Positions 1-13,847 of a stretch of 18,232 nucleotides of DNA are shown here, piece by piece. The translations under genes and the position numbers were made by a program. Within the stretch, counting starts at the first letter, position 1; every line of letters begins with the position of its first letter. The notes below the pieces were generated by a model. It was not told the origin of the DNA. It saw only the letters and a program-made list of their open reading frames with translations, and made no database searches. Source of the stretch: a virus (taxonomy: Duplodnaviria; Heunggongvirae; Uroviricota; Caudoviricetes); the IMG/VR virus record IMGVR_UViG_2698536647_000012; one strand, 5' to 3'.

Positions 1-1284
1 TTACTTCTTCGCCTCTGCAACCACTTTACTACCCACGCCGCGGTTATTGTATTCCCACATGCGGTTGTAGTTAGTGTCATTCAGATTGCGCTGTATTTCG
101 TCGTTATCATCTACGCTGCCGGTATTACCCGCAAACGGACGATTAGAGATCACCGCATCGGCCCACGGTTTAGCCGTGTTAAAACCTTCGTTGATGGCGC
201 TATCACGGATCACCACCTGACCGTTGGTATTGGCATCAACATCCAGCGAGCGGCCCAGTTGCGCCACACCATCACCGAAAGCATTGAAACGGCTGTTTAC
301 GGCGAGGAAACCGTAGTAAATGTTGGACAGCGTAGCCGGTGCAAACACATACGCTTCTTGCTGAGTACGTGAGTTCACCACGCGGAATTCGGTGTTATCG
401 AACACCACTGCGCCGCGACCAGAAACGATATCCACATCCCCTTCAATGTAGCTGTTGGTCACCAGCGTACGCGGCTGACGATTCGTTTCCAGACGGTTCT
501 GCACACCGCTGTTGGTGACAAAGAAGGTGTTCTGACGACCGAGAATGTTAACGTTGTTAATCTGTACCTGGTCACCATCAGTACGCAGTGCCACCGCCGG
601 ATGGTTACCTGCATCTACGCTATCGCCCAGCGTGTTTTCGATGGTCAGATTTTGCAGTTGCAGGCCATTGTTTTGTGACCAGAAGACCGCAGAGCAGAGA
701 ACACCGATACTGTCGCTGCGTTTGCTCTGGCAGCTATCGTACATATACCACGCTGGTTTACCTGGCATATATTTGCCGCGCGGGTTGACGTCGTGACGCC
801 AGTCGGCAGGGCTCATGCCACCATCAAGGGAAAGCCCAATCTTCACATCAATCGGTTTTTCACCTGTACCGTACAGAGTAATTCCACCCGGAGCGGCAGG
901 GACATATACCGTTCCCTGATACTCACCAGGCATCACGGCAATATACTGGCGCTTGTTGGTACGCTTGATAATTGCCGCATCTACCGCCGCCTGAATCGTG
1001 GTATGCGTTACACCTTGAGTGCCCGCCGGGCCGACAACAAAGTCAGGTTGCGCAGGCAGGGTAATCGGGGAAGGATTCCACGCTGCAGCACCTGGTGTCA
1101 GGGATGCAAAATAGTGTTGAGCATCGAAATTCTGCGCTTCTTTTGCCGACAGAATCGGGCGAGAAGAGGTACCAGGCGCGGTTTGATCAGAAGGACGTTG
1201 ATCGGGCGGGGTTGAGCTACAGGCGGTCAGCGTCACGCCAAAAGCCAATGCCAGCGCCAGACGGGAAACTGAAAATGTGTTCAC
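1..1284 (-). CDS. ybhC: YbhC, pectinesterase-like / acyl-CoA thioesterase outer-membrane lipoprotein (host gene flanking attB-lambda)
   Basis: 427-aa ORF filling the window start. N-terminal lipoprotein signal with lipobox (LTAC). Sequence recognised as E. coli YbhC, whose 5' side abuts the lambda attachment site. Start Met at 1284; stop codon at 1-3. Confidence 0.88.
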   Translation of the reverse strand: MNTFSVSRLALALAFGVTLTACSSTPPDQRPSDQTAPGTSSRPILSAKEAQNFDAQHYFASLTPGAAAWNPSPITLPAQPDFVVGPAGTQGVTHTTIQAAVDAAIIKRTNKRQYIAVMPGEYQGTVYVPAAPGGITLYGTGEKPIDVKIGLSLDGGMSPADWRHDVNPRGKYMPGKPAWYMYDSCQSKRSDSIGVLCSAVFWSQNNGLQLQNLTIENTLGDSVDAGNHPAVALRTDGDQVQINNVNILGRQNTFFVTNSGVQNRLETNRQPRTLVTNSYIEGDVDIVSGRGAVVFDNTEFRVVNSRTQQEAYVFAPATLSNIYYGFLAVNSRFNAFGDGVAQLGRSLDVDANTNGQVVIRDSAINEGFNTAKPWADAVISNRPFAGNTGSVDDNDEIQRNLNDTNYNRMWEYNNRGVGSKVVAEAKK

Positions 1285-1418: not shown

Positions 1419-2489
1419 TTATTTGATTTCAATTTTGTCCCACTCCCTGCCTCTGTCATCACGATACTGTGATGCCATGGTGTCCGACTTATGCCCGAGA
1501 AGATGTTGAGCAAACTTATCGCTTATCTGCTTCTCATAGAGTCTTGCAGACAAACTGCGCAACTCGTGAAAGGTAGGCGGATCCCCTTCGAAGGAAAGAC
1601 CTGATGCTTTTCGTGCGCGCATAAAATACCTTGATACTGTGCCGGATGAAAGCGGTTCACGACGAGTAGATGCAATTATGGTTTCTCCGCCAAGAATCTC
1701 TTTGCATTTATCAAGTGTTTCCTTCATTGATATCCCGAGAGCATCAACATGCAATGTTGTTGGGATGGCAATTTTTACGCCTGTTTTGCTTTGCTCGACA
1801 TAAAGATATCCATCTACGATATCAGACCACTTCATTTCGCATAAATCACCAACTCGTTGCCCGGTAACAACAGCCAGTTCCATTGCAAGTCTGAGCCAAC
1901 ATGGTGATGATTCTGCTGCTTGATAAATTTTCAGGTATTCGTCAGCCGTAAGTCTTGATCTCCTTACCTCTGATTTTGCTGCGCGAGTGGCAGCGACAGG
2001 GTTTGTTGTTATATGGCCTTCAGCTATTGCCTCTCGGAATGCATCGCTCAGTGTTGATCTGATTAACTTGGCTGACGCCGCCTTGCCCTCGTCTATGTAT
2101 CCATTGAGCATTGCCGCAATTTCTTTTGTGGTGATGTCTTCAAGTGGAGCATCAGGCAGACCCCTCCTTATTGCTTTAATTTTGCTCATGTAATTTATGA
2201 GTGTCTTCTGCTTGATTCCTCTGCTGGCCAGGATTTTTTCGTAGCGATCAAGCCATGAATGTAACGTAACGGAATTATCACTGTTGATTCTCGCTGTCAG
2301 AGGCTTGTGTTTGTGTCCTGAAAATAACTCAATGTTGGCCTGTATGGCTTCAGTGATTGCGATTCGCCTGTCTCTGCCTAATCCAAACTCTTTACCCGTC
2401 CTTGGGTCCCTGTAGCAGTAATATCCATTGTTTCTTATATAAAGGTTAGGGGGTAAATCCCGGCGCTCATGACTTCGCCTTCTTCCCAT
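1419..2489 (-). CDS. int: Lambda-type integrase (tyrosine recombinase)
   Basis: 356-aa ORF; translation recognised as phage lambda Int essentially along its full length, adjacent to the att core and overlapped by xis. Confidence 0.95.
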   Translation of the reverse strand: MGRRRSHERRDLPPNLYIRNNGYYCYRDPRTGKEFGLGRDRRIAITEAIQANIELFSGHKHKPLTARINSDNSVTLHSWLDRYEKILASRGIKQKTLINYMSKIKAIRRGLPDAPLEDITTKEIAAMLNGYIDEGKAASAKLIRSTLSDAFREAIAEGHITTNPVAATRAAKSEVRRSRLTADEYLKIYQAAESSPCWLRLAMELAVVTGQRVGDLCEMKWSDIVDGYLYVEQSKTGVKIAIPTTLHVDALGISMKETLDKCKEILGGETIIASTRREPLSSGTVSRYFMRARKASGLSFEGDPPTFHELRSLSARLYEKQISDKFAQHLLGHKSDTMASQYRDDRGREWDKIEIK

Positions 2490-2685
2490 TTCTGATCCTC
2501 TTCAAAAGGCTACCTGTTACTGGTCGATTTAAGTCAACCTTTACCGCTGATTCGTGGAACAGATACTCTCTTCCATCCTTAACCGGAGGAGGGAATATCC
2601 TGCACTCGCGTACCCATCGACGAACTGTTTCAAGGCTTCTTGGGCGTCGCTGGCGTGCGTTCCACTCCTGAAGTGTCAAGTACAT
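2467..2685 (-). CDS. xis: Lambda-type excisionase
   Basis: 72-aa ORF (MYLTLQEWNARQRRPRSLETVRRWVRE...) recognised as lambda Xis; overlaps the int start as in lambda. Confidence 0.93.
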   Translation of the reverse strand: MYLTLQEWNARQRRPRSLETVRRWVRECRIFPPPVKDGREYLFHESAVKVDLNRPVTGSLLKRIRNGKKAKS

Positions 2686-2724
2686 CGCAAAGTCTCCGCA
2701 ATTACACGCAAGAAAAAACCGCCA

Positions 2725-2892
2725 TCAGGCGGCTTGGTGTTCTTTCAGTTCTTCAATTCGAATATTGGTTACGTCTGCATGTGCTATCTGCGCCCACAGC
2801 ATCCAGTGGTCATAGCAGTCGCTGATGTTCTCGGCTTCGATAACTCTGTTGAATGGTTCTCCATTCCATTCACCTGTGACTCGGAAGTGCAT
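2725..2892 (-). CDS. Small hypothetical protein, 55 aa, in the xis-proximal position
   Basis: Translated by hand (MHFRVTGEWNGEPFNRVIEAENISDCYDHWMLWAQIAHADVTNIRIEELKEHQAA). ATG start preceded by a GGAGA Shine-Dalgarno about 8 nt upstream. Too short for the 60-aa ORF track. Position matches the small ORF next to xis in lambda-like phages. Confidence 0.6.
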   Translation of the reverse strand: MHFRVTGEWNGEPFNRVIEAENISDCYDHWMLWAQIAHADVTNIRIEELKEHQAA

Positions 2893-2942
2893 TTATCATC
2901 TCCATAAAACAAAACCCGCCGTAGCGAGTTCAGATAAAAGAA

Positions 2943-2962
2943 ATCCTCGTCAGTGCGAGGAT
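2943..2962 (-). terminator. Possible intrinsic terminator for leftward transcripts (hairpin ATCCTCG-n6-CGAGGAT followed by a T-rich tract on the minus strand)
   Basis: 7-bp perfect stem with 6-nt loop; on the minus strand it is followed by TTCTTTTATCT. Confidence 0.3.
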
Positions 2963-3206
2963 GCTGTTCATTGCTGCTATACACTTTTTTGCTCTCAACG
3001 TAAGCGGTAGCCCATTCTGTTGGGTTGGTGCAGTTGCTTTTAGGAAATGCTATTTACCCCTTAAATGTCGGCTGAAAGAGCTAAAATCCATGCAAAAAAT
3101 TTACGCAATTTTGTGTATTATTGTGCAGTAAGTAATGAGCTATTTTCTGCGCAAAAAATGGATGGTAAATTTGTCCGGGTCAGGAAAAATTTTATGGGCG
3201 CTAAAC

Positions 3207-3737
3207 ATGAAAAAAGATTCGTATCCTTATTTGATTTGCATGACAGTTTCAGGGCTGATCTTTATTTTCCTTTTCTTCTGGTGGCGGGCAGATATCTACA
3301 GGGTCACGTTTCTTAATCAGAGTATATCCCACTATTACATTCTGTTTAGCATGGGAATAGCTTTTCTGTTATCTCTGTTTTGGGTTAAGAAGGGGATAGT
3401 AAAACAAAGAGGCTGGAAGAGTCTGTCAGCATACCTTAAGGTTTATGCAGGGATGTGCATATTTGCTGGATTTTTTCTGATTATACCCCTTACGACACTA
3501 ACTTATTTTTTGCCTGGAGAGACATCGTCTTATGTTGCACCGTATCGGTATACTTCCGGTAGTTCAAAAAGTTGTTCTGGAGCTGAGGTGGATGACCCCG
3601 ATCTACATGAGAATATTCGCATTTGCTATCCGTATGGCAATTATGAGTACGATAATATTATCTATGTTGAAAAGAAAATTAATATATTAGGTGCGGTAGT
3701 GACATATGCACAGACCGCGCGTGATGATACTGAATGA
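3207..3737 (+). CDS. Hypothetical integral membrane protein (about 4 predicted TM helices plus a C-terminal soluble Cys/Tyr-rich domain); accessory cargo gene
   Basis: Longest ORF in a visibly AT-rich block, on the strand opposite the pL operon. Strongly hydrophobic segments (LICMTVSGLIFIFLFFWW, ILFSMGIAFLLSLFWV, YAGMCIFAGFFLIIPLTTL). ATG at 3207 is in frame with the track ORF 3135..3737. No family recognised. Confidence 0.6.
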   Translation: MKKDSYPYLICMTVSGLIFIFLFFWWRADIYRVTFLNQSISHYYILFSMGIAFLLSLFWVKKGIVKQRGWKSLSAYLKVYAGMCIFAGFFLIIPLTTLTYFLPGETSSYVAPYRYTSGSSKSCSGAEVDDPDLHENIRICYPYGNYEYDNIIYVEKKINILGAVVTYAQTARDDTE

Positions 3738-3771
3738 TATAGTATATAGCGGGCAAGTTTTAGTTAATTTA

Positions 3772-3795
3772 TCGAGGTAATATAATTTACCTCGA
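3772..3795. terminator. Hairpin (TCGAGGTAA-tataat-TTACCTCGA) between convergent genes; possible bidirectional terminator
   Basis: 9-bp perfect inverted repeat with 6-nt loop, 35 bp downstream of the membrane-protein stop, followed by a moderately T-rich stretch. Confidence 0.4.
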
Positions 3796-3947
3796 CTCGT
3801 TTGTTCTGGTATTAATATTTCGCTTTACGACCGATTTTTATCTGATGATATCATGCGGTTTTCATATACTGACTTACTGTCTTTTCTCCGTTAGCGATTT
3901 TCTCCTGCTCAGCGATGATTTTATCTTTGGCTTCTAGTTAATTTCGC

Positions 3948-4169
3948 TCACTTCGAACCTCTCTGTTTACTGATAAGCTCCAGATCCTCCTGGCAACTTG
4001 CACAAGTCCGACAACCCTGAACGACCAGGCGTCTTCGTTCATCTATCGGATCGCCACACTCACAACAATGAGTGGCAGATATAGCCTGGTGGTTCAGGCG
4101 GCGCATTTTTATTGCTGTGTTGCGCTGTAATTCTTCAATTTCTGATGCTGAATCAATGATGTCTGCCAT
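3948..4169 (-). CDS. TraR/DksA-family C4 zinc-finger protein
   Basis: 73-aa ORF with CxxC...CxxC zinc-finger motif (CCECGDPIDERRRLVVQGCRTCASC), typical of the small TraR-like proteins common in lambdoid early-left operons. Confidence 0.75.
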   Translation of the reverse strand: MADIIDSASEIEELQRNTAIKMRRLNHQAISATHCCECGDPIDERRRLVVQGCRTCASCQEDLELISKQRGSK

Positions 4170-4222
4170 CTTCCATTAATCCCTGAATTGTTGGTTAATA
4201 CGCTTGAGGGTGAATGCGAATA

Positions 4223-4245
4223 ATAAAAAAGGAGCCTGTAGCTCC
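4223..4245 (-). terminator. Weak candidate intrinsic terminator (GGAGC-ctgta-GCTCC plus T6 on the minus strand)
   Basis: 5-bp stem followed on the minus strand by TTTTTT; lies between the 4268..4579 ORF and the TraR-like gene. Confidence 0.25.
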
Positions 4246-4267
4246 CTGATGATTTTGCTTTTCATGT

Positions 4268-7033: not shown

Positions 7034-7170
7034 AACTAAGCCGCCTCGTTGAAGCGACTGAGGTATAAAGTGTTGTGTTGATTTCAGCTGGTCACACCGA
7101 CGTTCACGCGTCCGTTTCACCCCTCGCACTCCCCGAAGCCTGCTGAAATTCAAACTGCGGATCTAAGCGG

Positions 7171-7222
7171 TCATCGCAACGGTGAAACAGGTGGTTACCG
7201 TATCGTTGTGTCGTTGCGATGA
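7171..7222 (-). promoter_or_regulatory. Compound inverted repeat at the 5' end of the predicted pL transcript (outer stem TCATCGCAACG/CGTTGCGATGA, nested ACGGT/ACCGT)
   Basis: 11-bp outer inverted repeat with a nested 5-bp repeat and reiterated CAACG/CGTTG and CATCGCA motifs, just downstream of the predicted pL start. Confidence 0.4.
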
Positions 7223-7226
7223 ATTT

Positions 7227-7255
7227 ATTTAAAACTATAGTTGTTTTATCGTCAA
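7227..7255 (-). promoter_or_regulatory. pL candidate (minus strand: -35 TTGACG, 17-bp spacer, -10 TTAAAT)
   Basis: Minus-strand sequence gttgttgacgataaaacaactatagttttaaat is nearly identical in architecture to the pR candidate on the other side of the repressor gene. Confidence 0.55.
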
Positions 7256-7290
7256 CAACAAAAGTTGTTTTATCGGTTGTTTTAAATATA
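7236..7290. promoter_or_regulatory. OL operator cluster (reiterated GTTGTT/AACAAC half-sites, e.g. GTTGTTTTATCGTCAACAACAAAAGTTGTTTTATCGGTTGTTTT)
   Basis: Several direct and inverted copies of the hexamer GTTGTT overlapping the pL candidate; the same half-site forms the palindrome at OR. Confidence 0.55.
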
Positions 7291-7394
7291 ACTGGTTGTA
7301 TTTAGGATGGATTTATTTTGTGACTTGCATCGCATAGCGATAACTGAAGTGAGGTGTGGTGGTTTTTTGGACGGTATGAGTTATGAGGGGGAGG

Positions 7395-7421
7395 AAAAGA
7401 AAACCCGGCGCGGTTGCCGGG
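7395..7421 (-). terminator. Intrinsic terminator of the repressor-lipoprotein transcript (CCCGGC-gcggtt-GCCGGG then T-rich on the minus strand)
   Basis: 6-bp GC stem 9 bp downstream of the lipoprotein stop, followed on the minus strand by TTTTCTTTTCC. Confidence 0.6.
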
Positions 7422-7429
7422 TATGATTA

Positions 7430-7810
7430 TCAGTCAGCCCAACCTGATTTCGAGTTTATTTGGGTTTCTGACATTGTGTATTTCTTAATCGTGTCATCGT
7501 TAAAAAGAATAGTAAGTTCTTTTTTCGTACCGTTCGTTCCATTATGGAATAATCCATAGAATGGAATAAAAGTGGTGCCATTAACTTTTACTTTTGCAAA
7601 GGCGTACTTCCAGATCTCGTTTCCACTGTCAGTATATGAAACAGCATCAGGAGAACCAAAGTAAGATTTAACCTCATTCTTGGTTGTTTTACCTTCCTGA
7701 AGTTTAGACTGGACACTAATTTCAGTTTCATTTTTGAGTTGCTGGTTGCCTGAAGAAGCACACCCAGCCAATACAGATGCCATCATGGCAGCGATTAGGA
7801 TTTTTCTCAT
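7430..7810 (-). CDS. Lipoprotein (signal peptide plus lipobox LAGC), accessory gene in the rex position downstream of the repressor gene
   Basis: 126-aa ORF, N-terminus MRKILIAAMMASVLAGCASS. Same strand as and downstream of the repressor gene, so it would be expressed in the lysogen. Mature part loosely resembles small BamE/SmpA-like lipoproteins; not verified. Confidence 0.7.
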   Translation of the reverse strand: MRKILIAAMMASVLAGCASSGNQQLKNETEISVQSKLQEGKTTKNEVKSYFGSPDAVSYTDSGNEIWKYAFAKVKVNGTTFIPFYGLFHNGTNGTKKELTILFNDDTIKKYTMSETQINSKSGWAD

Positions 7811-8039
7811 TTTATGTTTCCATTCATTATAACCAGAAACATCTTAACATAATGATTCGAAATAAAAACCGCTACGAGATAGGGGGACATTTTGCTGACA
7901 GTAGCAACAAATCTCAGCTAACAACGAGAATATTTACTGAAATATGCAAACAGATTTGGCGTTCTTATAGAGAATTTAGTGCAATATCTAATCCGAGTGG
8001 TATAAATCTTAACCTTCGCTCCCTTAAGTCGTAGATAAA

Positions 8040-8729
8040 TTAACCATGCTTCCTGTACGTCTGCGGCATGCTTCCAATGACCTTACCGAATATGAACACC
8101 CGGTTCATCTCGTCTTTCTCGATCGGGTCCCACGGCGAGTAGCTCTTGTTATCAGAGATAACCAGCAGCTTATCCTTCATCATTTGAAGACGTTTTACAT
8201 GGGCAGTGTCGTCGTACAGAAACGCATAGATGCCATCACCGTCGAAAGATTTAACAGTGATATCAACGAACAGCAGGTCACCTGGTTCGATCGTCCCTGA
8301 CATGCTGTCACCTCGCACGTTAATGATGCGGATATTTTCCGCCTTCCTGCCATCGAACATGTGACGAGCATCGTCAAACGAGTACTCAACCGAGCGTAGA
8401 ACTTCTACAAACTCACGGTTGATTACACCTGGCCCGGCACTGACTTCTATATCAAGAACGTCAATTTTGAAGTATTTGGAATGGCTGACAGTTGATTGTA
8501 TTGGTTGCACTGTACTGTCTGACATATTTCCAACGCCAGAAGATAACCATTCTGCGCGTACACCCAAAGCGTTCGCGATCTCCACGATTTTAGTTGTTTG
8601 GTTAGCTTTCCCTGTTTCGATTTTCTGAATAGCAGCCTGGCTAACCCCGACCAAATCCCCAAGCGCCTTTTGTGTAAGGCCTCGCGCTAATCTGGCTTCT
8701 TTAAGTCTTTCTGAGAGTGTTGTTTTCAT
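8040..8729 (-). CDS. CI-type prophage repressor (N-terminal XRE HTH plus C-terminal S24 LexA-like autopeptidase)
   Basis: 229-aa ORF. HTH segment (LTQKALGDLVGVSQAAIQKIETGK). S24 catalytic motif GDSM (VRGDSMSGTIEPGDLLFVD) and a downstream Lys (AHVKRL). Divergent from the cro-like gene across an operator/promoter region. Confidence 0.9.
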   Translation of the reverse strand: MKTTLSERLKEARLARGLTQKALGDLVGVSQAAIQKIETGKANQTTKIVEIANALGVRAEWLSSGVGNMSDSTVQPIQSTVSHSKYFKIDVLDIEVSAGPGVINREFVEVLRSVEYSFDDARHMFDGRKAENIRIINVRGDSMSGTIEPGDLLFVDITVKSFDGDGIYAFLYDDTAHVKRLQMMKDKLLVISDNKSYSPWDPIEKDEMNRVFIFGKVIGSMPQTYRKHG

Positions 8730-8770
8730 AGATCAAATGTACAACCAAGGTTTTATTTCATCAAACGAAA

Positions 8771-8806
8771 ATGGTTGTTGACTAAAAACAACCATAGTTT
8801 TAATCT
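8771..8806 (+). promoter_or_regulatory. OR/pR: palindromic operator ATGGTTGTTGACTAAAAACAACCAT overlapping -35 TTGACT, 17-bp spacer, -10 TAATCT
   Basis: Perfect 25-bp palindrome with GTTGTT/AACAAC half-sites covering a near-consensus sigma70 promoter aimed at the cro-like gene (start 8834, SD GGAGG). Confidence 0.65.
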
Positions 8807-8833
8807 TGATTCGGATTAACCACGGAGGTTGTT

Positions 8834-9064
8834 ATGAACCCAGCAATCAAAACAGCGATCAATATCGTTGGTTCACAAAAGAAACTAGGCGATGCCTGCG
8901 AAGTTTCACAGCAGGCCGTCTATAAGTGGCTTCACAACAAAGCAAAGGTATCCCCTGAACATGTCGGCAGCATTGTTACGGCTACTGGTGGAGTTGTGAA
9001 GGCATACCAGATTCGCCCGGATCTTCCGAAGTTGTTTCCACACACCGAAAAGAACGCAGCTTAA
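8834..9064 (+). CDS. Cro-like HTH regulator of the YdaS family
   Basis: 76-aa ORF (MNPAIKTAINIVGSQKKLGDACEVSQQAVYKWL...), first gene of the rightward operon with a strong SD; resembles Rac-prophage YdaS-type Cro proteins. Confidence 0.75.
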   Translation: MNPAIKTAINIVGSQKKLGDACEVSQQAVYKWLHNKAKVSPEHVGSIVTATGGVVKAYQIRPDLPKLFPHTEKNAA

Positions 9065-11887: not shown

Positions 11888-11916
11888 TTGACAATTGTTA
11901 CTGAGTCTTGTAAGAA
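11888..11916 (+). promoter_or_regulatory. Candidate sigma70 promoter for the NACHT NTPase gene (-35 TTGACA, 17-bp spacer, -10 TAAGAA)
   Basis: Consensus -35 hexamer with 17-bp spacing to an A/T-rich -10-like hexamer in the AT-rich leader. Confidence 0.35.
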
Positions 11917-11951
11917 TGCACCACGTATTGGTTAATGAATGTGGTGAAAAA

Positions 11952-13847
11952 ATGGATGAGTTTCTTGCGACTATTATTAATAGCACAGTAGGAAAAGCTG
12001 CGGAAAAAATAACAGAAGTATTGCTCTCTAAACCTTGGGCTAGGGACCTAGATGAAGGCAAGGTTATACTCGAACAATTAAATGATCCCCTCGGAAGAGA
12101 AAATTATTTAAGAAAGCATGTGCTACCATCTCTGAAAATGAGAACTTTGCACAACGCTGATTATGATATTTTTTTAGATGATATTTATTATCCGTTAACT
12201 GTTGAGGTGGCATCTAATAAAGACAAGGTCGTTATAAAAGATGGGGTCACTTTACCATTTCATGGTATTGTAAATATAGTCGGTATAGCGGGGCAAGGGA
12301 AAAGTACTATTTTACGCAAGTTGTTTAGCGAGGAAATAAAAAAATCAGAACGGATGCCTTTTTTTATTGAATTAAGAAGGGTGAAGAATGCAAATATTAT
12401 TGCTTATCTGGCAGACATTCTTAATTCATTTGGTGTGGGGTGTTCAGAGGATAGCTTGAAAATATTACTGCAATCCCAAAGAGTCGTTTTAATGTTGGAT
12501 GGATTTGATGAGGTTAAACATGAAGAGCGAACTATGATGATGAATGAAATAAAAAACATTCATTATCATTTTAACACACCAATTATCGCAACAACGAGAC
12601 CAAATACAGATATATGTTATACTACTGATGTGTATAATATTTTTATAGATAAGCTAAATATTTCTGATAAGATTTGTATTCTTCATTCTTTATCGAAAAA
12701 TGACAGATTCTCAAGTAGTGATGCCTCGTTTAAAGTCTTGGCGGATTTACTATGTGATAAAGAAGAACTTGAGGGAACTATTTGCAATCCAATTTTAGTT
12801 ACTCTTTTGTATTATTGTTATCCTTATATGAATGATATTCCAAATAATATAATAGAGTTTTATCGAAGCCTCTTTGACACCTTATATGCAAGGCATGATA
12901 AAATAAAAGTATATACGCGCGAGAAAAAATCAAACATTATTGGTGAAAAAGCTAAATTGTGTTTTTCAGCTATTTGCTATAACGCACTGATTGAGGAGAA
13001 ATTTGAGTTTTGGGGAGAGGAGTTGCTTAGATATGCTGAAGATGCTATTGAAACAGAAGGTTATCTTAAAGAAGATGCATCAAACTTTATAGATGATCTT
13101 ATTGAGATAACTTGCCTTATCCAACCTGAGGGAAATAATAGGTATGTTTTTCTGCATAAATCAGTGCAAGAATTTTATGCTGCTTTTGCGGTAGCAAATT
13201 TACCGATTGAGTATAAAAAAGATATATACGAAAATCTTATGGTGGCTATTAAATGCTCTGAACAGTTAGATAACTTCATGTTGTTTTTACATTCACTAGA
13301 TTCCAAAGCATTTATAGATGAAATCACAATAAAAGCTTCTCGTGATATGGGGGTTGTAGATGTCGCAAACATGACGAGAGAGAGAGTTGAGAATGTTTTT
13401 GACTCGGCACTAAGTAGAGTATTTATCAAAGGCAACTCGACATCGAATGACTCAGTGATTTCGCTTCATTACGACTTTGTATTAGGTTCGCTCTTAGGTA
13501 TTGATATTCTACCTATAATGTCTGGAAAAGAACGAGTTCCTATGACAGAAATTGATTTGATTTTTGACGACCTTTTTTCATGCACGATGGATAAGGGTGA
13601 GTTAAACTTATACAAATTTGAAGTTAAAAAACAAAAAAATAATATTGATACTGATGTTCAGACTGATGATTATTTATTTCCCTTGGTGGATTATCTTAAG
13701 GTCAGGGGGGTTTATGGTTTGATGCTGGATACTTACCATCAGACAATTAAGGATTTTTATGATAGATATTATCAACCAGCTTATGATTCGAATCTTCGAA
13801 GAACACTAGCAATGGGAAGAAATTTCAAGTTAAAGAAAAATAATTAA
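11952..13847 (+). CDS. NACHT-type STAND NTPase (bacterial NLR-like protein), candidate anti-phage defence protein
   Basis: Walker A GIAGQGKST; Walker B of the NACHT type (VVLMLDGFDEV); sensor-1-like IIATTRP; NPxL-type segment (CNPILVTLL); winged-helix signature YVFLHKSVQEFYAAF. Start placed at the second in-frame ATG (MDEFLAT...); the track ORF begins at a TTG at 11895. Sits in a visibly AT-rich island. Confidence 0.85.
   Translation: MDEFLATIINSTVGKAAEKITEVLLSKPWARDLDEGKVILEQLNDPLGRENYLRKHVLPSLKMRTLHNADYDIFLDDIYYPLTVEVASNKDKVVIKDGVTLPFHGIVNIVGIAGQGKSTILRKLFSEEIKKSERMPFFIELRRVKNANIIAYLADILNSFGVGCSEDSLKILLQSQRVVLMLDGFDEVKHEERTMMMNEIKNIHYHFNTPIIATTRPNTDICYTTDVYNIFIDKLNISDKICILHSLSKNDRFSSSDASFKVLADLLCDKEELEGTICNPILVTLLYYCYPYMNDIPNNIIEFYRSLFDTLYARHDKIKVYTREKKSNIIGEKAKLCFSAICYNALIEEKFEFWGEELLRYAEDAIETEGYLKEDASNFIDDLIEITCLIQPEGNNRYVFLHKSVQEFYAAFAVANLPIEYKKDIYENLMVAIKCSEQLDNFMLFLHSLDSKAFIDEITIKASRDMGVVDVANMTRERVENVFDSALSRVFIKGNSTSNDSVISLHYDFVLGSLLGIDILPIMSGKERVPMTEIDLIFDDLFSCTMDKGELNLYKFEVKKQKNNIDTDVQTDDYLFPLVDYLKVRGVYGLMLDTYHQTIKDFYDRYYQPAYDSNLRRTLAMGRNFKLKKNN

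What the first reader, a model, noticed from the sequence alone, without database searches (positions are those of the whole stretch)
3065..3950. AT-rich cargo gene for a 4-TM membrane protein on the opposite strand, in the ea8.5/ea22 position between xis and the recombination genes
Seen in sequence: a composition-distinct block with a plus-strand ORF (3207-3737), convergent with the leftward early operon, with its own upstream A/T-rich region and a downstream 9-bp hairpin (3772-3795). The product has about four hydrophobic helices and a C-terminal soluble region rich in Tyr and Cys (SCSGAEVDDPDLHENIRICYPYGNYEYDN). Established knowledge: lambda carries the non-essential, hypervariable ea8.5/ea22 genes at this position; here they are replaced. 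Inference: lysogen-expressed membrane proteins at such positions are often superinfection-exclusion or abortive-infection factors.
Basis: partly seen in the sequence, partly recalled or inferred. Interest (0 to 1): 0.55.

Follow-up and report, generated by a model that had tools for sequence, protein, structure and literature searches.

The report
Uncharacterised prophage inner-membrane cargo gene
A lambda-like prophage carries, where lambda has ea8.5 and ea22, a self-contained cargo gene for a small inner-membrane protein with a disulfide-braced domain facing the periplasm; the gene is common in E. coli and sits in known phage cargo slots, so it may block infecting phages, but nobody has tested what it does.

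Summary
A real gene lies on the + strand at 3207-3737 (176 aa). It is AT-rich, runs opposite to the leftward early operon, and is followed by the 3772-3795 hairpin. It fills the slot where lambda has ea8.5 and ea22.

Corrections: there are three membrane helices, not four. The C-terminal 75 residues form a five-strand beta barrel, predicted with high confidence. Its two cysteines are the only residues invariant across the family, so the domain is probably periplasmic and disulfide-bonded.

The family is small (61 representatives among 1.84 billion proteins), enterobacterial, and has no Pfam, NCBIfam or PADLOC match. It is not homologous to P22 SieA.

The cassette is in phages 434, mEp332 and 2B8 and in 905 of 5,426 complete E. 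coli genomes. Diverged copies, with the same upstream region in several that were aligned, sit in the gpA-gpQ defence hotspot of P2-like prophages. A distant member sits between Q and the holin of another prophage. Other members are single chromosomal genes in Enterobacter, Klebsiella, Citrobacter, Pseudescherichia and Serratia, and sit on large Pantoea plasmids.

Best reading: a lysogen-expressed envelope protein, most likely blocking phage DNA entry. This is circumstantial, and no paper found here reports a test of it.

The parts
3085..3175 (+). Upstream regulatory region that travels with the gene
   Evidence: It is 62-82% identical (53-63% in the two most diverged copies) to P2-like prophage copies whose synonymous sites are only 29-44% identical. 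Sequence left of 3085 is at background, 37-46% with gaps.
3100..3129 (+). Degenerate 10-bp direct repeats (TTTACGCAAT TTTGTGTATT ATTGTGCAGT)
   Evidence: P2-like copies have 3-4 clean copies of ATTGTGCA(G/A)N at 10-bp spacing. The repeat finder does not call them in the window itself. The 434 annotators marked 3111-3124 as a CII box, which I doubt.
3143..3171 (+). Candidate promoter: -35 TTTTCT (3143-3148), 17-bp spacer, extended -10 TGgTAAATT (3163-3171)
   Evidence: This is my reading of alignment A4. The TGnTAAATT element is kept in lambdoid and most P2-like copies and in Citrobacter. The consensus scanner did not report it. It is inferred, not shown.
3207..3737 (+). Coding sequence, 176 aa plus stop
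3219..3299 (+). Transmembrane helix 1 (residues 5-31)
   Evidence: AlphaFold2 model, overall pLDDT 84.7; hydropathy peak.
3318..3389 (+). Transmembrane helix 2 (residues 38-61)
3414..3509 (+). Lys/Arg-rich start followed by transmembrane helix 3 (residues 70-101)
3510..3734 (+). C-terminal five-strand beta domain (residues 102-176), predicted periplasmic
3573..3575 (+). Codon of Cys123
   Evidence: Invariant in 24 sequences down to 17% identity.
3624..3626 (+). Codon of Cys140
   Evidence: Invariant. A disulfide with Cys123 is inferred.
3772..3795 (+). Hairpin, terminator-like
   Evidence: It is weakly kept in L089 and absent in L011.
3890..3937 (-). Probable short relic of an Ead/Ea22-like gene
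   Evidence: 16 aa are 69% identical to the intact 127-aa Ead_Ea22 gene next to the P2-like copy in L089. At DNA level, 44 nt are 77% identical, E = 2e-6.
2943..2962 (-). Leftward terminator (t-L4 of phage 434) just beyond the cassette
2725..2892 (-). Left flank gene, ORF55
3948..4169 (-). Right flank gene, TraR/DksA-type zinc finger

Best explanation
The block at about 3085-3940 is a moron: a self-contained cargo unit with its own upstream control region, one gene and a hairpin. It is set against the direction of the leftward early operon.

The gene makes a 176-aa inner-membrane protein. The N-terminus is in the cytoplasm, three helices cross the membrane, and a 75-residue beta barrel held by one disulfide faces the periplasm.

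Inferred working. In a lysogen the leftward promoter is repressed, so nothing reads against the gene and it is expressed. The protein sits in the inner membrane. Its periplasmic domain binds a conserved partner, either a host inner-membrane or periplasmic component that incoming phages need, or a conserved part of the injection machinery. This blocks phage DNA entry, protecting the lysogen and its prophage.

Shown here: the gene, its boundaries, its architecture, selection on it, and its distribution. Inferred: the topology, the disulfide, the promoter, expression in lysogens, and the exclusion function.
For: The gene is real and constrained. The structure model is confident. The charge pattern fits N-in, C-out. 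The two Cys are the only invariant residues, and a short strand in loop 1 (residues 34-36) lies on the same side as the C-domain.

The cassette replaces ea8.5/ea22. The upstream 90 nt is conserved far beyond synonymous sites across two unrelated phage types.

The gene occurs in three separate prophage cargo slots: lambdoid xis-exo, P2-like gpA-gpQ and lambdoid Q-holin. The gpA-gpQ interval is an experimentally supported anti-phage hotspot (PMC9122126), and the P2-like allele WP_000711113 is listed there as 'hypothetical'.

It is common: 905 of 5,426 complete E. coli genomes, and the exact protein is on at least 1000 contigs. Known single-gene exclusion proteins have a similar size and membrane layout, for example P22 SieA with 162-164 aa and three helices in the inner membrane (PMC10883804).
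Against: There is no functional evidence at all. There is no homology to SieA (hhalign probability 0.2%), to any PADLOC model, or to any annotated PHROG.

Chromosomal members are syntenic across six Enterobacter species, and others sit in ordinary neighbourhoods in Klebsiella, Citrobacter, Pseudescherichia and Serratia and on Pantoea megaplasmids. This points to a cellular role that phages borrowed.

In the family alignments the periplasmic domain is the best-conserved part, although pairwise dN/dS between copies is mixed. That is not what an arms race with variable phage proteins predicts. The hairpin has a weak T-run and is not kept in distant copies. The promoter is only a reading of conserved sequence.
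Confidence: 0.4

Rival explanations
1. It is a lysogenic-conversion or housekeeping envelope factor unrelated to phage defence. The protein would modulate a host envelope process, such as a transporter, a sensor or cell-surface polysaccharide handling, through its periplasmic domain. Prophages would carry it because it raises host fitness.
For: Apparently native chromosomal copies sit in non-defence neighbourhoods and are syntenic across Enterobacter species. Copies occur on Pantoea megaplasmids. The periplasmic domain is strongly conserved in the family alignments. Two contexts lie beside glucose-family PTS permease genes. The small OB-like barrel is a fold type often used for ligand binding (the generalisation is my knowledge).
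Against: Repeated capture into phage cargo hotspots, including the P2 defence hotspot. No conserved partner gene was found across contexts.
Confidence: 0.3
2. It is an abortive-infection effector. The protein would permeabilise or depolarise the inner membrane when infection is sensed, killing the cell before phage release.
For: Multi-pass membrane proteins serve as effectors in several defence systems (discussed in PMC9122126). The gene sits in prophage hotspots.
Against: It is a solitary gene with no sensor partner in any context. The cytoplasmic parts are only a few residues at the N-terminus and a short basic loop, so nothing is placed to sense events in the cytoplasm. It is widespread and intact, with no sign of toxicity control.
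Confidence: 0.1
3. It is an orphan immunity protein against a membrane-acting bacteriocin or contact-delivered toxin.
For: The size and multi-pass inner-membrane layout resemble immunity proteins of pore-forming colicins (my knowledge). It is a single gene in variable islets.
Against: There is no Pfam or NCBIfam match to any immunity family. No toxin gene is adjacent in any context examined. A folded beta domain in the periplasm is not a feature of those families (my knowledge).
Confidence: 0.1
4. It is a decaying remnant with no present function.
For: A 112-aa form lacking the first 64 residues of the P2-like allele is on at least 1000 contigs.
Against: dN/dS is 0.09-0.15. The reading frame is intact in hundreds of genomes and across genera. 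The upstream region is conserved.
Confidence: 0.03

Closest known systems
P22 SieA (superinfection exclusion protein A)
   Same: It is a prophage-expressed single gene for a protein of about 160-176 aa with three predicted membrane helices, located in the inner membrane (PMC10883804).
   Different: There is no sequence relationship (hhalign probability 0.2%). In my reading of the SieA sequence, its soluble stretch lies between helix 1 and helices 2-3. Here a C-terminal beta domain follows helix 3. SieA's target, the ejection proteins gp16 and gp20, has no known counterpart here.
Lambda ea8.5 and ea22 (occupants of the same slot)
   Same: They occupy the same position between the ORF55-like gene and the TraR-like gene. 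They are non-essential and variable.
   Different: Those genes lie on the leftward strand within the pL operon and are unrelated in sequence. Here they are replaced, and only a 44-48 nt Ead/Ea22-like relic remains.
Cargo of the P2 gpA-gpQ hotspot (old, tin and other defence genes)
   Same: Diverged copies of this gene sit in that hotspot.
   Different: Old and Tin are cytoplasmic proteins (my knowledge). This gene was listed only as 'hypothetical', and its accession does not appear in the paper's table of tested systems.
DicB (Qin prophage) and SNIPE: defences acting at the inner-membrane DNA-entry site
   Same: Both interfere with phage genome entry at the inner membrane, through ManYZ and the tape measure protein (PMC6832061; PMC13190303). 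This is the step proposed here.
   Different: [quoted passage not shown] This protein has no nuclease or other recognisable catalytic domain.
Small OB/cold-shock-like barrels, e.g. DUF1093 (PDB 3npp)
   Different: The scores are below the level that shows kinship, identity is 11%, and there is no sequence match to any solved structure.

Membership tests
Phage moron (autonomous cargo unit) | Present in some and absent in other closely related phages at the same site | tested here: met
   Lambda-type phages have ea8.5 and ea22 there; 434, mEp332 and 2B8 have this gene.
Phage moron (autonomous cargo unit) | Base composition differs from the neighbours | tested here: met
   GC is 0.34-0.41 against mostly 0.44-0.54.
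Phage moron (autonomous cargo unit) | Own promoter and terminator | tested here: inconclusive
   The upstream region is conserved and holds a candidate extended -10. The hairpin is real but its T-run is weak. The consensus scan found no promoter upstream of the gene.
Phage moron (autonomous cargo unit) | Expressed from the repressed prophage | not testable with these tools
   This needs RNA-seq or 5' RACE of a lysogen.
P22 SieA family | Sequence homology to SieA types A-C | tested here: not met
   Only type A (P22 SieA) was compared: hhalign probability 0.2%. No annotated PHROG matched.
P22 SieA family | Blocks DNA injection of specific phages | not testable with these tools
   This needs infection assays.
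Known anti-phage defence systems (PADLOC-DB v2) | Match to a defence protein model | tested here: not met
   No hits for the window protein or for two distant homologues.
Other annotated phage exclusion proteins (those annotated in PHROGs or modelled in Pfam) | Match to the PHROG or Pfam family | tested here: not met
   The only strong PHROG match is phrog_1416 (unknown function), covering the C-terminal half; phrog_19046, also of unknown function, matched at E = 0.57. Pfam gave nothing above threshold.
Pore-forming colicin immunity proteins | Match to a Pfam or NCBIfam immunity family, and an adjacent toxin gene | tested here: not met
   No family match. No toxin neighbour in the contexts examined.
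OB-fold / DUF1093-like periplasmic barrels | Significant structural or sequence similarity | tested here: inconclusive

The most novel reading that the evidence does not exclude
This is the founding member of a new family of single-gene exclusion proteins. Its conserved periplasmic barrel would clamp a host inner-membrane component that siphophages need for genome entry. A glucose-family PTS permease is one candidate, suggested by the neighbours in Serratia and Klebsiella. The gene would have been borrowed from an enterobacterial chromosomal gene and shuttled, with its own control region, between lambdoid and P2-like phages.
Probability: 0.2. Interest if true: 0.6.

Novelty: new member of a known kind. 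Interest (0 to 1): 0.4.

Why it matters
The gene is in classic phage 434 and in about one in six complete E. coli genomes, yet it has no name, no family and no tested function.

It has been captured in at least three prophage cargo slots. [quoted passage not shown] That makes it a cheap and well-motivated candidate for a new envelope-level exclusion protein.

If it is one, it would add a family unrelated to SieA, Imm, Sp or Cor. It would also offer a handle on the inner-membrane step of phage DNA entry. If it is not, the native Enterobacter copies point to an unknown envelope function that phages find worth carrying.

Tried and rejected
- **Family libraries.** Pfam, NCBIfam and PADLOC gave nothing. 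The only strong PHROG match was phrog_1416, of unknown function.
- **P22 SieA.** Its size and helix count are alike, but there is no homology.
- **Sequence search of solved structures.** Nothing.
- **P0121.** This 3,074-aa hit in the exhaustive search is an artefact of 12 near-identical 21-aa repeats scoring 0-4 bits each.
- **CII box.** The 434 record marks one at 3111-3124. I reject it as the likely control: the repeats read TTGT rather than TTGC, no good -10 follows at the pRE/pI spacing, and the same repeats are kept in P2-like phages, which as far as I know have no lambda-type CII.
- **Rfam.** No RNA family in 2850-4250.
- **Literature.** No paper names the gene, its accessions or a phenotype. 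In the P2 hotspot study it appears only as 'hypothetical' in a locus table.
- **The 200-aa and 188-aa start calls.** The RefSeq (200 aa) and 434 (188 aa) starts are rejected in favour of 3207.

Full report
**Setting.** The window is the early left arm and immunity region of a lambda-like prophage inserted at the lambda attachment site. From the left it holds:
- ybhC (1..1284 -), the integrase (1419..2489 -) and the excisionase (2467..2685 -);
- ORF55 (2725..2892 -);
- the finding;
- a TraR/DksA-type zinc-finger gene (3948..4169 -);
- exo, bet and gam, then a CI-like repressor, Cro, a CII-like activator and the O- and P-like replication genes.

The same DNA (98.7-100% identical over 2900-4000) is in phages 434, mEp332 and 2B8. 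It is also in 905 of 5,426 complete E. coli genomes at 80% coverage or more. RefSeq calls the product 'hypothetical protein' (WP_001348592.1). The 434 record calls it 'putative membrane protein'.

- **Gene and start.** The + strand ORF ends at 3737. Three start codons have been used by annotators: 3135, 3171 and 3207. Homologues from Salmonella, Enterobacter, Klebsiella, Cedecea and others all begin at the Met encoded at 3207. In P2-like prophage copies, in-frame stop codons lie a few codons upstream of it.
- **Composition.** GC is 0.34-0.41 across 3001-3900, against mostly 0.44-0.54 around it.
- **Hairpin.** The hairpin at 3772-3795 is real: 9-bp stem, -12.9 kcal/mol, z = -2.96. Its T-run is poor, and the structure is weak or absent in distant copies.
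- **Selection.** Against copies whose synonymous sites are saturated, dN/dS is 0.09-0.15. This is a working gene.
- **Slot.** Only the two ends of 2900-4000 match lambda. In lambda-type phage 4W, the stretch between the ORF55-like gene and the TraR-like gene holds ea8.5 and ea22.

**The protein.** An AlphaFold2 model built on 21 homologues is confident (mean pLDDT 84.7). It shows three long helices (residues 5-31, 38-61, 70-101), a short strand at 34-36, and a five-strand beta domain at 105-171.
- **Helix count.** Hydropathy gives three peaks, not four. The 24 residues added by the 200-aa call are not hydrophobic.
- **C-domain.** Modelled alone, it reaches pLDDT 91.
- **Topology.** The N-terminus and the loop after helix 2 are rich in Lys and Arg. 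The C-domain is net acidic. By the positive-inside rule this gives N-terminus in, C-domain out.
- **Disulfide.** In an alignment reaching 17% identity, the only invariant residues are Cys123 and Cys140. They flank a beta hairpin. A structural disulfide in the oxidising periplasm is the simplest reading.

Topology and disulfide are inferences. They were not tested here.

**What it resembles.** Nothing known.
- Pfam, NCBIfam and PADLOC give no match. The only strong PHROG match, phrog_1416, has no function and covers only the C-terminal half.
- Viral predicted structures give nothing significant, and sequence search of solved structures gives nothing.
- P22 SieA has the same size, three helices and an inner-membrane location (PMC10883804). 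It is unrelated (hhalign probability 0.2%) and its soluble part is placed differently.

An exhaustive profile search of 1.84 billion representative proteins finds only 61 relatives. The full-length ones are about 170 aa with the same layout, and every organism identified for a family member is an enterobacterium. One long repeat protein in that list is an artefact.

**Where the family lives.** This is the most informative result.
- **(a) Lambdoid prophages of E. coli.** The gene lies between ORF55 or xis and the TraR-like gene, at 97-100% identity and with more than one integrase type.
- **(b) P2-like prophages of E. coli and Salmonella.** The gene lies between the portal gene Q and the replication gene A, at 46-79% identity and in more than one P2-like lineage.
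  - That interval is where P2 carries old and tin. It has been shown to be a hotspot of anti-phage systems (PMC9122126).
  - The E. coli P2-like allele WP_000711113 is listed there as 'hypothetical', within an arrangement containing ParM/StbA and StbB.
  - Its accession is absent from that paper's table of tested systems.
- **(c) A third prophage slot.** A distant member (187 aa, both Cys conserved) lies between antiterminator Q and the holin of another lambdoid prophage. This is the classic late-operon cargo site.
- **(d) Single chromosomal genes.**
  - Enterobacter: syntenic in six species, flanked by a GGDEF gene, and just downstream of a LysR gene in four of them.
  - Klebsiella sp.: next to a bgl-type PTS operon.
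  - Citrobacter: within an islet between rstA and rstB.
  - Pseudescherichia.
  - Serratia: immediately after ptsG.
- **(e) Large Pantoea plasmids**.

No partner gene is shared across these settings, so the protein works alone or with core host components.

**The cassette moves with its control region.** The lambdoid copy and the P2-like copies differ at 56-71% of synonymous sites. Even so, the 90 nt upstream of the gene (3085-3175) stays 62-82% identical in most copies, and 53-63% in the two most diverged. Sequence to the left of 3085 is unrelated, and the last 30 nt before the start codon drift in all but the closest copy.

The conserved part holds 10-bp direct repeats of ATTGTGCA. There are three to four clean copies in P2-like phages and a degenerate set in the window at 3100-3129. 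It also holds a conserved TGnTAAATT element at 3163-3171. I read that element as an extended -10, with a weak -35 (TTTTCT) 17 bp upstream and a transcript start near 3178. This is a reading of conservation only; the consensus scanner did not report it.

The 434 annotators marked part of the repeats as a CII site. I think this unlikely, for three reasons: the repeats read TTGT rather than TTGC, no suitable -10 follows at the spacing seen in the known CII promoters, and the repeats persist in P2-like phages. What binds them is unexplained.

On the right side, homology to the closest P2-like copy is patchy. It includes the hairpin and a 44-nt piece at 3894-3937. That piece matches the middle of an intact Ead/Ea22-like gene lying next to the P2-like copy. 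So the unit exchanged between the two phage types probably included an ea22-type neighbour, of which only a relic remains here.

**How it most likely works.** The gene points against the leftward early operon.
- **Lytic growth.** Antiterminated transcripts from the left promoter must cross the gene in antisense before reaching the terminators at 2943-2962 and 2912-2931.
- **Lysogeny.** That promoter is silent, so the cassette's own promoter is unopposed. This arrangement fits lysogen-specific expression (inference).
- **The product.** It has almost nothing in the cytoplasm. Whatever it does, it does in the membrane or periplasm.

Repeated capture into prophage cargo slots, one of them a proven defence hotspot, makes protection of the lysogen against other phages at the DNA-entry step the most likely role. 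I put this at about 0.4.

In the family alignments the periplasmic domain is the best-conserved part: mean column identity is 69%, against 54% for the whole protein. Pairwise dN/dS between copies does not single it out consistently. This suggests that it binds a conserved partner, more likely a host component than a fast-evolving phage protein. Two of roughly eight distinct chromosomal neighbourhoods lie beside glucose-family PTS permease genes. Phage HK97 needs PtsG, and lambda needs ManYZ, for DNA entry (my knowledge; ManYZ also in PMC6832061 and PMC13190303). This is a post hoc lead, not evidence.

**Rivals.**
- **Envelope function unrelated to phages.** The apparently native, syntenic chromosomal copies keep this open, with the gene carried by phages as a fitness gene (about 0.3).
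- **Abortive infection.** This fits poorly because there is no cytoplasmic sensor and no partner gene (about 0.1).
- **Orphan immunity protein against a membrane-acting toxin.** This is possible on architecture alone, but it has no family match and no toxin neighbour (about 0.1).
- **Decay.** This is excluded by selection, although a 112-aa form lacking the first two helices is very common among P2-like copies. That form would keep one membrane anchor plus the periplasmic domain.

**Verdict.** The finding is a real, well-bounded cargo cassette encoding an uncharacterised family of small inner-membrane proteins. The functional guess is reasonable but unproven. The thing belongs to a known kind (a prophage moron encoding an envelope protein), from a family nobody has studied. 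Its abundance, its presence in phage 434 and its hotspot locations make it an easy and worthwhile target for experiment.

Noticed in passing
window 11895-13847 (+): A 650-aa ORF lies directly after the P-like helicase loader. It has a NACHT domain (Pfam 3e-11, residues 126-237) and a weak NB-ARC match, but no PADLOC hit. It is probably a STAND/NLR-type defence gene in the nin region of the same prophage.
   Followed up: partly
window 7430-7810 (-), within the AT-rich stretch 7050-7950: A 126-aa ORF lies in a second low-GC block (0.37-0.42) between the leftward early genes and the CI-like repressor. It has a weak BamE-like match (1.6e-4) and hits PHROG 3135 of unknown function. It may be another cargo gene.
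   Followed up: partly
window 3100-3129 (+); L095 7884-7923; L012 5894-5926: 10-bp direct repeats of ATTGTGCA lie upstream of the gene. There are 3-4 clean copies in P2-like prophages and the copy number varies. The spacing is like that of sites for winged-helix activators, but the binding factor is unknown.
   Followed up: partly
window 3890-3937 (-): A short relic of an Ead/Ea22-like gene. The intact 127-aa gene (Pfam Ead_Ea22, 2.7e-29) lies next to the P2-like copy in L089 at 8622-9005.
   Followed up: yes
window 2685-2725, compared with L001 2453-2797: Phage 434 has a 114-codon ORF (ORF114) between xis and ORF55. The window prophage lacks it.
   Followed up: no
L107 4333-6510; L008 3882-6543: In Serratia the homologue sits directly downstream of ptsG. 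In Klebsiella sp. R390 it is divergent from a bgl-type PTS EIIBCA gene. This may link the family to glucose-family PTS permeases.
   Followed up: no
L112 and L113, 5001-5564: A distant family member (187 aa) sits between antiterminator Q and the holin of a lambdoid prophage. This is a third independent cargo slot.
   Followed up: partly
proteins P0159 and P0161 (P2-like allele): A 112-aa form that lacks the first two helices and keeps helix 3 plus the C-domain is recorded on at least 1000 contigs.
   Followed up: partly
L089 9069-10344 (-); L114 4689-5964 (-): P2-like prophages carrying this gene also carry a ParM/StbA and StbB plasmid-partition pair in the gpA-gpQ hotspot.
   Followed up: no
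L014 (3,561-bp contig): A contig labelled as a Candidatus Nanosynbacter metagenome bin carries the E. coli prophage cassette at 100% identity, with the TraR-like gene and exo. This is almost certainly a binning contaminant.
   Followed up: no
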